Shown here: positions 4,142 through 10,837 of the stretch, one piece after another
Layout of the letters: each line of letters starts with the position of its first letter
How positions within the stretch are numbered: the stretch's first letter is position 1
Assembly: GCA_014905635.1 (NCBI GenBank)
Contig: JABVCE010000008.1
Span: forward strand, 620,001 to 684,000
From: Scenedesmus sp. PABB004
Taxonomy: Eukaryota
DNA: 64,000 nucleotides
Direction of reading: 5' to 3'
Position numbers and translations under genes: made by a program
The notes under the pieces: generated by a model
Databases searched by the model: none
Seen by the model: the letters and a program-made list of their open reading frames with translations, nothing else
What the model was told of the DNA's origin: nothing

Positions 4142-7100
4142 ATGGCGCCCCGGGGCAGCTCCGCGATGCTGCTGGCTGTGGCGCTGGTCGCGCTGGTCGC
4201 GGCCGGCCTCCCCAGCGCCGCGAACGCGCAGAGCGCGCAGCGCGGCGGCGCGCCGCGCCCTGCCGGAAGCGGCGGCGCCGCCGCCGCCGCCATCCCGGGC
4301 CTGCCGCGCGGCGACCTGGTGGGGCCGGGCACGCGCGCGCAGCTCGGCCGCGTCGCGCGCGCGATCGCGACGCACCGCGCCAAGAACAAGACGGCCGTGA
4401 AGCCCAACCAGCTCGGCGGCAACGAGGAGGAGCCCTACAACTGGGACGGCTCCACCATCGTCCCCGTCGCGGGTGCGGTGTGTGTGGGGGAGCTTTGCGA
4501 AGGCGTGATATCCCCAGCCGTGGCCGTGCCGCCCCCGCGCCGACCCCGCGCCGCCGCCGCCGCCGCCGCCGCCGCCGGTGCGCAGTGACGGTAGTGGAGC
4601 CCGCCGACGGCGCGGCCGTGCCGGGGCGGTACTACGCCTCCACCGACCGCGCGCCCGACGCCGCGGCGGCGGTGGCCAACCTGAACGACGCGTACCGCGG
4701 CGCGCGCAGCGTGGCCGCGGGCGGCGCCAACGTGACGTCGCGTGACACGCCGTTCCGCTTCAAGCTCTGCGCGGTGCGCACGGTCAAGGACACCGCCTTT
4801 TACTCCAGCGGGCCGTACGACCTCGCCGGCCGCGCCGCCAACCGGTACAAGTATGCGCGCGGCGGCACGCTCAACCTCTGGGTCAAGCCCCTAAACCTCA
4901 AGGCCACAAACCCCACCACCACCCCGCTCATCGGCGCGCCGTCCTACGCCTTTTGGAACCTGTGAGGCCCGCCGCGCGGGCGGGCAGCGCGCGCGGCGCC
5001 GCGCGCGGCCCCGAGGGCCCGCCGGCGCGCGCCGCGCGCTGCGCGCTGCCCGCGCCGCCGCCCCGCACCGGCCGGCCGCCGCGCCCACCTCCTCCTCCTT
5101 CTGCGTGCCCGCGCGCAGGTACGAGTTCCCGCCCGAGCTGCCGCAGTACACGATGGACTCGGACGGGATCGAGATCGACGGCGCCTACGCGCTGCCCGGC
5201 GCGCGCGGCCTCGACGGCGTCACGCCCTTCAACGGCGGCGCCTCGCGCCTGCCCTGGCTCGCGCACGACGTCGCGCACTGGTCCGCGCCGCCGCGCCGCG
5301 CCGTACCCGCACCCGCGCGCCGCCGGCCCGCCGAGCTGCGGAGCGCGGCCCGCGACGCGCGTGGCCGCCGCGCGCTTTCCGCAGGATCGGCGCGCTGCAC
5401 ACCTTCCAGGACACCACCTCTTCCAACGGGCAGTGCAGCGAGGCGAAGCAGGTGTACGGCGACTTCTGGGGCCAGGGTGACCAGGCGGTCGACACGCCCG
5501 CGCACCTCGCGCCGAGCACGGCCGCCGAGGTGCGGCGCCGCCCACAGCCGCGCCGCGCCGCGCGCGCGCCGCGCCCGGCGCGACCCACGCCGCCACGCCG
5601 CCCGCCCCACGCCGCGCCGCCGCCGCGCCGCCGCAGGCCGACTGCTTCGCCAACCCGGCGCGCGACAGCTGCCCCAACGCCAACACCGGCTTCTCGGTCG
5701 CGGGGCCTGACCCGCAGTTCAACATCCTCAACAACCTGCGCGACGAGTGCCTCGTGCAGTTCACGACCGACCAGCGCAACTGGTGCGGGGCCGGCCGCGG
5801 CGCCGGCGGCGCGCGCACCTGCGCGACGCCGCGGGCGCGCGGCCGCGCCGGGTCGGGCTGACGCGCCGCGCCGCGCCGACCGCCAGGATGGACTCCTGCT
5901 ACGACTACTTCAGGGTGTCCAGTGAGCCGCCCGCGCGGCGCCGCCGCCGGCCACAGCACGCCGCGCCACGCACCGCCGCGCGCGCCCCAGCGCAGCGCCC
6001 CCCGCGCCCAGCGCCGCGCCCCACACGCGCCGCGCCGCGCGCCGCCGCGCGCCGCGCAGTGCGCATCGGCTACTCGCCCGTGGCCAAGCCCGACGCGTTC
6101 ACCGCGCCGGCCAACGCAGCGACGGTGCTGGACGTGTTCGCAAACGACACCTCCAAGGAGCCGGGCTACGCGTTCACCGCCGACCTCAGCGTAAACATCC
6201 TCACGCCGCCGGCCAAGGGCACGCTCGCGCTCGCCAACGGCGGCCGCGCGCTGCTCTACACGCCGGCGCCGAGCGCGGCCGGCACCGACTCGTTCGTGTA
6301 CACCGCGGTCGACTGCTACGGCAACAGCGCCAACACCACGGCGCGCGCCGCGCCCGCGCGCCGCCCGCGCGCCGCCCGCGCGCCGCCCGCGCGCCGCCCG
6401 CGCGCCGCCCGCGCGCCGCCAGAGGGCTGCGCCACCCACGCCCGCTGTGCGCTTTGCGCGCGCGCAGGTCACCATCACGATCGGACCCAGCCCCGCCACG
6501 ACCACCTGCCCCACCACGGGCCTGCCCGCCTGCGTCAACGCGACCGCCGGTGCGGGGGGGGGGGGGGGCAGCACGGCGCGCGGCGCGCCGCGCACGCCGC
6601 AGCGCGCGCCGCCGCCGACCCCCCCCCCCCCCGCCCCGCCGCCGCAGGGCGCCTGCTGGTGGCGGGCTCGGGCAGCCTGCCGGCCGACCCCTGCACGCTC
6701 TTTGCCAACGGCACGAGCGCCACATACTGCACCAAGGCAGTCAACACCGCCTACGCGTGTGTTTACCCGATACTGACCTCCGCGACCATCTGCCGCATGA
6801 GCAAGGGCCTCTGCGACATCGGCGAGCGCTGGTGCGCCGCCCCGCCACGCCGAGGGCTGGCCGCCGCCGCCGGCCGGCCGCGCGGGCGGCAGCCGCGCGC
6901 CGAGGCGGCGCGGGCGCGCTGCCGCACCGACCGACCGCCGCCCGCCCGCAGCGACGGCCGCAACGCCGACTGCCCCGTGGACAAGCTACGGGCGTCCGGC
7001 ACGCCGTGCGGCACCGTCGCGGGCCCCTGCCAGCAGCCCTTCACCTGCAGCGGCACCTCCGCCGCGTGTGTCAACACCACCGTGCGCTACTTTGACGCGG

Positions 7101-7331
7101 CCACCGTCTGCCGCCCCGCCAGCGGTGAGGCCTCGGGCGGCGCGGCGCGGCGCGGCGCGCGCGTGGCCCCTGCTGCGTGCGCTGCGGCTCACCCGCAGCG
7201 CCGCGCGGCGCGCAGGCCCGTGCGACACGCCCGAGACGTGCTCCGGCACCGCGGCCGCCTGCCCCGCGGACGCGTTCCTGCCTGCCGGCCGGGTGCGCGG
7301 GCGTTGCATTGGGATGGGCATGCTGTGCGCG

Positions 7332-10300: not shown

Positions 10301-10837
10301 CCCAGCTGCGCCGCCCAGCTGCGCCGCCTGCCCAGCCCCCTGACGCGCCCCCCGCCCGCCCTCGGCGCCGCGCGGCGCAGGGGCTCGGCGGCGGAGTGCC
10401 CCAAGGACGCGGTGGCGCCGGCGAGCAAGGTCTGCCGCCAGGCGCGCAGCGTCTGCGACGCAGGTGGGCCCCCGCCTGGCTCGGGGTCCGCTGGCCCCGC
10501 TCCCCCGCGCGCGCCGCACGCCGCGCCTCCGCTCACCGCCGCCCGCGCCGCCGCCGCCGCCGTGGCGCCGTGGCCAGCCGAGCGCTGCGACGGCGCGAGC
10601 AAGGCCTGCCCCGACAACGCCTTCATGCCCAACTCCCGCATGTGCAGCAGGCCGCTGCGCGACAAATGGCCGGCGGAGCAGCTCTGGCCGACCAAGAGCA
10701 AGCGCGGCAAGCTCCAGGTGCTCAAGGCCGCGGAGCTTGACTTCTCCAAGGCCGTGGCCCAGGGATACCTGCCGTGCGGGCAGTGCCGCGCGGGGCAGTG
10801 CCCCAAGCCCTCGTCGCACTGGTGCAAGACCCCGTGA
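4142..10837 (+). CDS. Secreted multidomain protein: signal peptide, pappalysin/ulilysin-like (M43) metzincin domain, bacterial-type Ig-like domain and 18 disintegrin-like Cys repeats; >20 introns
   Basis: Signal MLLAVALVALVAAGLPSAANA. Spliced zinc motif WLAHDVAHW/IGALHTFQ...GDQAVDTPAH...PDPQFNILNNLRDECLVQFTTDQ (M43-like layout). Ig-like AKPDAF...LDVFANDT...PPAKGTL...LLYTPAPSAAGTDSFVYTAVD...VTITI. Repeats CRxxxGxCDxxExCxGxxxxCPxD. Ends WCKTP-TGA at 10835-10837. Confidence 0.85.
7921..8352 (+). repeat. Copy 1 of a ~430-bp intragenic direct repeat (exons plus two introns)
   Basis: Near-identical to 8710-9140, including intron sequence (GTGGGTGGCTCGCAGCGCCCCGGG... and GTGAGCGCAGCATGCC...). Confidence 0.9.
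8710..9140 (+). repeat. Copy 2 of the ~430-bp intragenic direct repeat
   Basis: Near-identical to 7921-8352, with only scattered substitutions and small indels. Confidence 0.9.

What the first reader, a model, noticed from the sequence alone, without database searches (positions are those of the whole stretch)
4142..10837. ADAM/snake-venom-metalloproteinase-like architecture in a green alga: metzincin + Ig-like + 18 tandem disintegrin loops
Seen: after manual splicing, one gene encodes a signal peptide, a pro-like region, an M43 (pappalysin/ulilysin-like) metzincin domain, an Ig-like domain and 16 tandem ~32-aa repeats (CRxxxGxCDxxExCxGxxxxCPxD). A Pro-rich linker, two more repeats and a Cys-rich tail follow, with no transmembrane segment. 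Known: this repeat is the C-terminal loop of ADAM/SVMP disintegrin domains; ADAMs pair one disintegrin with an M12B protease. Inference: this is a convergent ADAM-like secreted protein built on a different metzincin family with multiplied loops, in a lineage with no known integrins. Possible roles are cell-wall or colony adhesion, or interaction with grazers or microbes.
Basis: partly seen in the sequence, partly recalled or inferred. Interest (0 to 1): 0.82.

Follow-up and report, generated by a model that had tools for sequence, protein, structure and literature searches.

The report
Algal pappalysin-like protein on disintegrin-repeat stalk
A green-algal gene encodes a secreted protein in which a zinc-protease-like head that has lost its catalytic glutamate sits on 18 small cysteine-rich repeats of the snake-venom "disintegrin" type; such repeat arrays turn out to be common in bacteria and protists, so this is a new combination of known parts rather than a new kind of protein.

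Summary
By in-silico splicing, one 28-exon gene (4142-10837, +) gives a 1278-aa protein. It has a signal peptide, a Cys-free pro-like segment, an M43 (pappalysin-type) metzincin domain, a Big_9 Ig-like domain and 18 units of about 32 aa (16 + 2), with no membrane segment.

Two corrections change the reading.

1. The zinc motif is HDxxHxxGxxH. The catalytic Glu is Asp. The Met-turn Met is Leu and the switch Tyr is Asn, against HE in 26 of 26 and N[FY]M[DS]Y in 24 of 26 bacterial M43 domains.
2. Multiplied disintegrin-like units are not unusual. A profile of the units finds 4382 protein clusters, 1020 of them at E <= 1e-30. They occur mainly in Myxococcota, also in protists such as Arcella and Thecamonas. 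They are fused to many unrelated heads: subtilase, papain, reprolysin, acid phosphatase, propellers.

None of the relatives examined has an M43 head.

My reading is an extracellular wall or matrix protein. A weakened or inactive protease-like head is carried on a disulfide-rich repeat stalk that grew by duplication of exon-intron blocks. "Convergent ADAM" is only partly apt. No transcript evidence was available. Interest is moderate.

The parts
4142..10837 (+). Whole gene model: 28 exons, 1278 codons plus stop
   Evidence: the joined exons give 3837 nt in frame with a single terminal stop. 26 GT-AG introns and 1 tentative GC-AG intron, 75-157 nt.
4142..4228 (+). Signal peptide (residues 1-29)
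   Evidence: Read from the sequence: the only hydrophobic run of 15 or more residues is at 8-23, followed by A-N-A. Not tested with a predictor.
4229..4453 (+). Pro-like segment (residues 30-104). It has no Cys, so no cysteine switch, and contains an RGD at residues 54-56.
   Evidence: The cysteine-switch motif of unicellular pappalysins is described in PMC6949598 (passages).
4454..5921 (+). M43 (pappalysin-type) metzincin domain, residues about 105-398, spread over the end of exon 1 and exons 2-6
   Evidence: 26-31% identity over 228-293 columns to four myxobacterial ORFs that pass Pfam's M43 cut-off; own M43 profiles score 31.8 and 58.8 bits.
5264..5280 (+). First part of the zinc motif, H285-D286-V-A-H289-W. 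Codon 5267-5269 is GAC (Asp) where the family has Glu. The motif continues in exon 4 at 5385-5400 (I-G292-A-L-H295).
   Evidence: HE is found in 26 of 26 bacterial M43 ORFs with a recognisable motif.
5721..5735 (+). Met-turn equivalent, N367-I-L-N-N371. Leu stands for the Met and Asn for the switch Tyr.
   Evidence: Alignment. N[FY]M[DS]Y is found in 24 of 26 bacterial M43 ORFs. The roles of these residues are described in PMC6949598.
6062..6340 (+). Big_9 bacterial Ig-like domain (exon 7)
   Evidence: PF17963, E 8.3e-12, 46.3 bits, over the cut-off. Weaker hits to Cadherin_4 and Cadherin_5.
6341..6467 (+). Tentative GC-AG intron 7, which holds a perfect 11-bp x 6.4 tandem repeat (6351-6420)
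   Evidence: The exon 8 frame is supported by its likeness to the second leader module.
6468..6790 (+). Leader module 1 (Cys-rich, exons 8-9) ahead of the first block of units
   Evidence: the local alignment to leader 2 scores 95 against 35.2 +/- 6.2 for shuffles; 0 of 500 shuffles reach it.
6791..9999 (+). Block 1: 16 tandem disintegrin-like units (residues 568-1075). Unit 2 is degenerate.
7846..9132 (+). Recent tandem duplication of a three-unit exon-intron block (7846-8344 against 8635-9132)
   Evidence: 203 nt at 87% and 300 nt at 97%, spacing 788-789; exons 94.0% and introns 90.8% identical.
9619..9635 (+). 17-nt micro-exon (exon 24) within unit 15
   Evidence: it is needed to keep the frame. 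Both of its introns fall in recurring position classes.
10000..10224 (+). Pro-rich linker and leader module 2
10225..10618 (+). Block 2: units 17 and 18. Unit 17 carries RGD in the loop (10237-10245).
10619..10837 (+). C-terminal tail of about 72 aa with 5 Cys, no hydrophobic stretch, then the stop codon
   Evidence: No convincing Pfam family.

Best explanation
The locus is one intron-rich nuclear gene of a very GC-rich chlorophycean alga of the Scenedesmus type. It encodes a secreted, non-membrane extracellular protein.

Its N-terminal head has the fold family of unicellular pappalysins (MEROPS M43). It keeps the three zinc-binding His and the Gly of the metzincin motif. It has Asp for the general-base Glu, Leu for the Met-turn Met and Asn for the switch Tyr, and it has no cysteine-switch pro-segment. 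A Big_9 Ig-like domain links the head to two cassettes. Each cassette is a Cys-rich leader followed by disintegrin-like units of 32 aa with four Cys (16 units, then 2).

Shown here: the architecture, the homologies, the active-site departures, and growth of the array by duplication of exon-intron blocks inside the algal genome.

Inferred: the array forms a stiff, disulfide-bonded stalk or multivalent binding rod. This would be the generic role of the same module in thousands of bacterial and protist secreted proteins, where it follows many different enzymatic or binding heads. The head is inferred to be a weak protease or a zinc-holding binding module (pseudo-protease). The likely place of action is the cell wall or the matrix between cells, not an integrin-type receptor.
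For: Gene model:
- In frame across 27 introns.
- Five junctions are backed by homology. The alignments to bacterial M43 run without a break across the exon 1/2, 2/3, 3/4, 4/5 and 5/6 joins.

M43 assignment:
- Own profiles from Pfam-validated M43 ORFs hit the spliced protein at E 1.5e-8 and 9.9e-17 among 3135 targets. 0 of 200 shuffles were hit.

Degenerate site:
- HD against HE in 26 of 26 bacterial M43 domains. NILNN against N[FY]M[DS]Y in 24 of 26.
- Glu is the general base, and mirolysin E225A is inactive (PMC6949598, passages).

Units:
- PF00200 hits on 11 of 23 exon pieces.
- 37 of 37 scanned relatives pass PF00200, mostly at profile positions 45-75.
- A model of five units of a relative has pLDDT 95.6. 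Its best PDB matches are all SVMP, ADAM or disintegrin chains, e.g. 2.1 A over 61 columns at 36% identity.

Generic module:
- 4382 cluster representatives.
- Heads in front of the array include S8, C1, reprolysin and purple acid phosphatase; partners elsewhere in the protein include FG-GAP, Kelch, lectin and CBM.

Growth in situ:
- 16 of 19 introns in the array fall into three position/phase classes.
- A block of about 790 bp is duplicated with its introns.

Secretion:
- One N-terminal hydrophobic run only.
Against: - No transcript or protein evidence; no sequencing run was listed.
- One intron needs a GC donor, and one exon is 17 nt.
- Pfam's own M43 model did not hit any single exon (0 of 23), and I could not hand in the spliced protein.
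- Glu-to-Asp need not abolish activity. From memory, not verified here, such mutants of some zinc proteases keep part of their activity. All three His ligands and the aligned Cys and Asp after the turn are kept, which argues for a still functional metal site.
- The stalk role rests on analogy. No member of this repeat class has a tested function that I could find (NCBIfam has no model for the repeat).
- The Foldseek E-values are modest: best 3.6e-3, none at or below 0.001.
- The folded array is a bacterial-type relative, not the algal protein.
Confidence: 0.55

Rival explanations
1. It is a working secreted protease. Asp286 serves as general base, and the enzyme remodels or lyses the cell wall (for example mother-wall release of daughter cells). 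The repeats tether it to the wall.
For: The His triad, the Gly, the two aligned Cys and the Asp after the turn are conserved. The 28-exon frame is intact. Relatives of the array follow true hydrolase domains (S8, C1, reprolysin, phosphatase). Unicellular pappalysins are said to occur in algae (PMC6949598).
Against: Three catalytic-site positions depart together from 24-26 of 26 bacterial M43 domains. There is no cysteine-switch pro-segment. A Scenedesmus mother-wall proteome paper has no mention of peptidase, metalloprotease or disintegrin in its main text; its supplements were not seen.
Confidence: 0.3
2. One reading: a convergent ADAM-like adhesion protease whose loops engage a receptor as disintegrin loops engage integrins.
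For: A metzincin head followed by disintegrin-type modules. Unit 17 carries RGD at the loop position, and residues 54-56 are RGD.
Against: The same arrays occur behind non-protease heads and in bacteria. Only 1 of the 18 loops has RGD. There is no M12B domain, no ADAM Cys-rich domain and no membrane anchor. That green algae lack integrins is general knowledge, not tested here.
Confidence: 0.1
3. The model is wrong in kind: two neighbouring genes, or a decaying untranscribed gene.
For: No RNA evidence. No near-identical protein was among the 275 fetched. An exon 2 search found nothing. There is one non-canonical intron and a micro-exon.
Against: No stop in 1278 codons across 28 exons in a 78% GC genome. 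There is no internal start with a signal peptide. The splice sites are consistent. Homology runs across five junctions. The published gene count for the matching strain is low, 7,092 (table in PMC12571836), so a missing annotation is not surprising.
Confidence: 0.05

Closest known systems
Tandem 'Disintegrin domain-containing' proteins of Myxococcota and protists, e.g. Sorangium cellulosum So ce56 sce9349 (P0153), Thecamonas trahens 'disintegrin' (P0161), Arcella intermedia A0A6B2KXD9 (P0038: reprolysin-like head plus 15 matched units)
   Same: The same unit of about 32 aa with four Cys, in long tandem arrays. It is 38-50% identical to the algal array over 517-799 columns and up to 58.7% over 421. 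The proteins are secreted. In the four cases with a hydrolase head among the 37 scanned, the array follows the head.
   Different: None has an M43 head: 0 of 37 by Pfam, 0 of 120 by precomputed Pfam, 0 of 275 by own profile. The algal array is broken by 19 introns. No function is known for any of these proteins.
ADAM and P-III snake venom metalloproteinases (M12B + disintegrin + Cys-rich), e.g. VAP2 2dw1, VAP1 2ero, ADAM22 3g5c
   Same: A metzincin head followed by a disintegrin-type module. PF00200 matches. The best structural matches of the unit array are these chains.
   Different: The head is M43, not M12B. Only the C-terminal half of the disintegrin domain is repeated, 18 times. There is no ADAM Cys-rich domain, EGF domain or membrane span. 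The catalytic Glu is absent.
Unicellular pappalysins (M43B): ulilysin, mirolysin; multi-domain bacterial cytophagalysin
   Same: A catalytic domain alignable end to end. The HxxxHxxGxxH His/Gly positions, H-T-F after the third His, the D-T-P segment and the Cys and Asp after the turn are conserved.
   Different: Glu to Asp, Met-turn Met to Leu, switch Tyr to Asn, and no Cys-Gly switch pro-segment (features from PMC6949598). It has extra Big_9 and repeat domains. For cytophagalysin only the abstract in the search listing was seen.
Earlier scan finding e1-560760: Ostreococcus surface metalloprotease (M11-like) on a Cys-rich repeat stalk
   Same: A green-algal zinc-protease-like head carried on a tandem Cys-rich repeat array.
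   Different: A different protease family, a different 36-aa repeat and a C-terminal anchor. It is an AI note, not checked here.

Membership tests
MEROPS M43 / Pfam Peptidase_M43 (PF05572), pappalysin family | Significant profile similarity over the catalytic domain | tested here: met
   Own HMMs from ORFs that pass Pfam's cut-off give 31.8 bits, E 1.5e-8 and 58.8 bits, E 9.9e-17 among 3135 targets. Pfam's own model was run only on single exons (0 of 23 hits).
MEROPS M43 / metzincins | Zinc motif HEXXHXXGXXH with Glu as general base | tested here: not met
   The three His and the Gly are present (H285, H289, G292, H295), but residue 286 is Asp (GAC, 5267-5269). HE is found in 26 of 26 bacterial M43 ORFs.
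MEROPS M43 / metzincins | Met-turn methionine and downstream switch Tyr | tested here: not met
   The aligned segment is N-I-L-N-N (residues 367-371), against N[FY]M[DS]Y in 24 of 26. This rests on alignment only, with no structure of the algal domain.
Unicellular pappalysins | Short pro-segment with a Cys-Gly cysteine switch | tested here: not met
   There is no Cys in residues 1-171. The feature is taken from PMC6949598.
Pfam Disintegrin (PF00200) | Profile match over the gathering score | tested here: inconclusive
   11 of 23 exon pieces hit at 15.3-24.6 bits, each under the cut-off of 35.1. A simple sum is about 221 bits. Relatives of the array pass in 37 of 37. The spliced protein itself could not be scanned.
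Pfam Disintegrin (PF00200) | Complete domain of about 75 aa, including the N-terminal half | tested here: not met
   The exon hits lie within profile positions 23-75, seven of the eleven at 58/59-74/75. In relatives the best stretches are mostly at positions 45-75. Only the leader plus the first unit of cassette 2 reaches back to position 23, and weakly (E 0.0022).
Disintegrin fold | Structural likeness to solved disintegrin domains | tested here: met
   Tested for a relative, not for the algal protein. The model of five units of P0056 has pLDDT 95.6. The listed top PDB matches are SVMP, ADAM or disintegrin chains; the best has E 3.6e-3, probability 1.00, 2.1 A over 61 columns; no match has E <= 0.001.
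ADAM / reprolysin (M12B) family | M12B catalytic domain, ADAM Cys-rich domain, membrane span | tested here: not met
   No Reprolysin or ADAM_CR hit on any of the 23 pieces. The head is M43-like. There is only one hydrophobic run, at the N-terminus.
Pfam Big_9 (PF17963) | Profile match over the gathering score | tested here: met
   E 8.3e-12, 46.3 bits against 23.6, profile positions 3-84 of 89, on exon 7.

The most novel reading that the evidence does not exclude
The 32-aa four-Cys unit may be an ancient extracellular building block shared across bacteria and eukaryotes, and the animal disintegrin domain may be a derived single-copy form of it. On this reading the algal gene is a eukaryotic assembly of three bacterial-type modules (an M43 head, Big_9 and the unit array). 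These modules may have been acquired by transfer from a myxobacterium-like donor, then filled with introns and expanded by exon-block duplication into a pseudo-protease adhesin of the Scenedesmus wall or colony matrix.
Probability: 0.15. Interest if true: 0.65.

Novelty: new variant of a known kind. Interest (0 to 1): 0.4.

Why it matters
It places a very abundant but functionally unstudied extracellular repeat in a tractable green alga, next to a protease-like head whose active site is altered. In databases the repeat is filed under the animal name 'Disintegrin', yet it occurs mostly in Myxococcota and protists. That offers a concrete system for two questions: what these arrays do, and whether pappalysin-type heads can turn into binding modules. 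It also warns that 'disintegrin' hits outside animals do not imply ADAM-like or integrin-related biology. No near-identical protein turned up in the protein collections searched, so the gene may be missing from, or mis-modelled in, the public annotation.

Tried and rejected
- RNA evidence: no RNA holder, and no run of any kind, was listed for 4000-11200. No whole genome is held for the window.
- Exon 2 (124 aa) against 5.8 billion proteins, longer lengths: none of 4383 candidates scored E <= 0.001.
- phmmer of exons 4 and 5 against PDB sequences: exon 4 matched only antibodies and a lysozyme, exon 5 matched nothing.
- ESM Atlas on exon 2: best score 0.80. A cluster in which 46% of members carry PF05572 appeared at rank 6 (0.77). 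This is a lead only.
- Metagenome scan with exon 2: 338 pattern matches, none a relative. With the Big_9 exon: 3 distant loci at 37% identity, not orthologues.
- A1 was too short for the search for homologous proteins. It was redone as A2 with a 57-aa exon as first row.
- Earlier scan notes: none for this genome. The sequence look-up gave an unrelated note.
- Literature:
  - 'disintegrin' + 'green alga' + 'metalloprotease' gave 16 papers; none of the 15 listed concerns an algal disintegrin by title or abstract.
  - The disintegrin-like/bacteria/evolution/ADAM search gave nothing relevant among the 15 listed.
  - The disintegrin/myxobacteria search listed one paper that contains the word 'disintegrin'; it only names the Pfam family in Minicystis rosea.
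  - The algal-genus search was badly designed: none of the 15 listed holds 'disintegrin'.
  - The pseudopeptidase review has no mention of M43 or pappalysin.
  - The search for the Glu-to-Asp matrilysin mutant found no paper holding that term among those listed.
- Considered and rejected: reading 6341-6647 straight through as coding. The frame stays open, but that would replace the leader module, which has a clear twin in cassette 2, with Arg/Ala/Pro-rich filler.
- No TGTAA signal lies downstream of the stop on the + strand, so the 3' end is undefined.
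Full report
**What is there.** The window is about 78% G+C throughout the region (0.73-0.84 in 500-bp steps), so open frames are everywhere and ORF lists say little. I read the three + frames base by base and found a consistent chain of short exons with GT...AG borders. Joined by coordinates, they give 28 exons, 3837 nt and 1278 codons. The first in-frame ATG is at 4142 and the only stop is at 10835-10837. 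26 of 27 introns are GT-AG, with donors of the GTGCG/GTGAG type and mostly CGCAG acceptors. Introns are 75-157 nt long. Two weak points remain. Intron 7 (6341-6467) needs a GC donor and contains a perfect 11-bp x 6.4 repeat. Exon 24 is only 17 nt. No sequencing run was listed and no genome is held, so the model rests on sequence logic and homology alone.

**Support for the joins.** The spliced N-terminal part aligns end to end with bacterial M43 proteins, without a break across the exon 1/2, 2/3, 3/4, 4/5 and 5/6 joins. The zinc motif itself is split by intron 3 and reads correctly only after splicing. In the repeat region, 13 of the 15 successive spacings in the first block are exactly 32 aa after splicing. 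Exon 8, behind the doubtful intron, encodes a Cys-rich leader that has a clear twin ahead of the second block (score 95 against 35.2 +/- 6.2 for shuffles; 0 of 500 reach it).

**Domains.**
- Pfam on 23 single-exon pieces gives Big_9 on exon 7 (E 8.3e-12, over the cut-off).
- The same scan gives Disintegrin on 11 of 23 pieces. Each hit is below the cut-off (15.3-24.6 bits against 35.1). All map within profile positions 23-75 of 75, and seven of them to 58/59-74/75.
- Peptidase_M43 was found on none of the pieces.
- phmmer of exons 4 and 5 against PDB sequences gave nothing relevant.

To test M43 on the spliced domain, I fetched bacterial loci that pass Pfam's M43 cut-off (4 of 5 genomes; 14 of 121). 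I built profiles from them in the script box. The algal protein scores 31.8 bits, E 1.5e-8 (four seeds) and 58.8 bits, E 9.9e-17 (26 seeds) among 3135 targets. These targets included 200 shuffles, the 150 best repeat proteins and all long frames of the window and of 79 loci. The only other hit was the unspliced frame that holds exon 5. Pairwise identity to four myxobacterial M43 ORFs is 26-31% over 228-293 columns.

**An altered active site.** The motif reads H285-D-x-x-H289-x-x-G292-x-x-H295. Where the family has the general-base Glu, the alga has Asp (GAC, 5267-5269). All 26 bacterial M43 ORFs with a recognisable motif have HE, and 24 of 26 have N[FY]M[DS]Y downstream. The alga has N-I-L-N-N at the aligned place. 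In mirolysin this segment is the Met-turn, followed by the switch Tyr. The Glu is the general base, E225A is inactive, and the zymogen uses a Cys-Gly switch (PMC6949598, passages). The algal pro-like segment has no Cys at all; the first Cys is residue 172. The His ligands, and the aligned Cys and Asp after the turn, are kept. I therefore read the head as weakened or inactive, but not as a ruin. From memory, not verified here (one search found no paper holding the term), Glu-to-Asp mutants of some zinc proteases keep part of their activity, so an active enzyme stays a serious rival.

**The repeats are a common module.** A profile of 13 exon-encoded units (A1), run against 1.84 billion cluster representatives, found 4382 proteins at E <= 0.001, 2761 at <= 1e-10 and 1020 at <= 1e-30. 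The best 150 have 9-44 matched stretches each.
- I Pfam-scanned 37 of these 150. All 37 pass PF00200, mostly at profile positions 45-75.
- The partner domains are very varied: Peptidase_S8, Peptidase_C1 with a lectin, Reprolysin, purple acid phosphatase, FG-GAP, Kelch, DUF5122 propellers, CBM6/F5_F8, cohesin/dockerin, DUF11.
- A second search with names (A2) scored 4089 of 8000 candidates at E <= 1e-5. All 120 listed carry PF00200, 17 of 120 carry the acid-phosphatase pair, and none carries PF05572.
- Named carriers include Sorangium cellulosum sce9349, other Sorangium and Archangium proteins, Candidatus Binatia, Thecamonas trahens 'disintegrin' and an Arcella intermedia protein with a reprolysin-like head.
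- A genome scan with one bacterial member found 347 relatives among 598 pattern matches. The 79 loci kept are mostly from Myxococcota (Polyangiales, Sandaracinaceae, Sorangium). Others are from Phycisphaerae, Spirochaetales, Binatia, Acidobacteriota and Limnocylindria.
- The algal array is 38-50% identical to such arrays over 517-799 columns, with a best local match of 58.7% over 421.
- NCBIfam has no model for the unit.
- No M43 head was found among the relatives: 0 of 37, 0 of 120 and 0 of 275. No units were found at the bacterial M43 loci checked. The N-terminal 567 aa match none of the 150 except for one weak Big_9-region hit.

**Fold.** I could not fold the spliced protein. A 170-aa stretch of five units from relative P0056 was folded with 27 relatives as its alignment. 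It gave pLDDT 95.6 and pTM 0.71, with short beta-hairpins in each unit. Foldseek against the PDB gave 71 matches at E <= 10 and none at <= 0.001. The top of the list is made up of P-III snake venom metalloproteinases, ADAM22/10/17 and free disintegrins. The best match is VAP2: E 3.6e-3, probability 1.00, 2.1 A over 61 columns, 36% identity. This supports homology of the unit with the disintegrin domain.

**How the array grew.** 19 introns lie in the 18 units, and 16 of them fall into three classes:
- phase 1 in the Gly codon after C-R-x-x-x (8 introns);
- phase 0 before E-x-C (5 introns);
- phase 2 just before the third Cys (3 introns).

A three-unit block of about 790 bp is duplicated with its introns. 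Exons are 94.0% and introns 90.8% identical. The array therefore expanded inside an intron-bearing genome.

**Host.** An exon of the neighbouring inositol-monophosphatase gene is 100% identical to a protein that NCBI lists under a Scenedesmus strain. The next hits are 77% and below. The organism-named hits among the stronger ones are all chlorophycean, such as Monoraphidium, Raphidocelis and Chlamydomonas incerta. A table in PMC12571836 gives that strain 78.5% G+C and only 7,092 genes. This fits both the window and the absence of any near-identical protein among those fetched. 'Green alga' is therefore supported.

**Function.** Shown here are the architecture, the homologies, the site changes and the mode of expansion. 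The rest is inferred. A signal peptide without any later hydrophobic stretch points to secretion. Because the same module follows many unrelated heads in secreted proteins of organisms without integrins, I take it to be a generic disulfide-rich stalk or multivalent binding rod. I take the algal protein to be a wall or matrix component whose head binds or only weakly cleaves. One loop of 18 (unit 17) carries RGD at the loop position. I treat that as a curiosity.

**Compared with what is known.** The protein works most like the bacterial and protist tandem-disintegrin proteins, and it resembles ADAM/SVMP in the order of head and module only. It is not an ADAM: it has no M12B domain, no ADAM Cys-rich domain and no membrane span. 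It belongs to the M43 fold family but fails three active-site criteria. Unicellular pappalysins are said to occur in algae (PMC6949598). My literature searches found nothing on algal disintegrin-like proteins, and only a passing Pfam mention for a myxobacterium. An earlier scan note describes an Ostreococcus M11-like protease on a different Cys-rich stalk (not checked), which suggests the design recurs in green algae.

**Verdict.** This is a real and neatly built gene. It is a new combination, and a catalytically altered variant, of known parts. Interest is moderate.

Noticed in passing
window 10237-10245 (unit 17) and 4301-4309: RGD sits in the loop of unit 17 (C-R-R-A-R-G-D-C-D), at the place where snake disintegrins carry RGD. 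A second RGD lies in the pro-like segment (residues 54-56). Units 8 and 12 have VGD at the same place.
   Followed up: partly
window 6351-6420 and 6550-6647: Intron 7 holds a perfect 11-bp x 6.4 tandem repeat. Intron 8 starts with a run of about 15 G and holds a run of about 13 C. Such tracts could hide assembly errors near the doubtful GC donor.
   Followed up: no
window 2182-3702 (+), TGTAA at 3720: The upstream neighbour reads like a CCCH zinc-finger plus RING protein of the CWC24/RNF113 type (recalled likeness, not tested). Its stop is followed 18 nt later by TGTAA, the usual chlorophycean poly(A) signal (recalled). The studied gene has no TGTAA downstream on its strand.
   Followed up: partly
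window 20586-20855 (+): The last exon of an inositol-monophosphatase-like gene is 100% identical to an NCBI protein named IMPL1 of a Scenedesmus strain. I used it to place the window taxonomically.
   Followed up: yes
window about 11770-14300 (+): The downstream neighbour reads like the small (regulatory, ACT-domain) subunit of acetolactate synthase. This is recalled from motifs in the frames and was not tested.
   Followed up: no
window 53448-56868 (+), 42242-46824 (-), 21807-26082 (+), 60131-63949 (-): Frames that read like a subtilisin-type peptidase, RAP/FAST-like proteins, a PRP40-like WW/FF protein and a MutS homologue. These are readings of translated frames only, not tested.
   Followed up: no
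related proteins, e.g. P0184, P0030, P0175: 17 of the 120 best tandem-disintegrin proteins carry a purple-acid-phosphatase head (PF16656 + PF00149) of very similar length, about 1130-1300 aa. This is a recurrent and apparently unstudied bacterial architecture.
   Followed up: no
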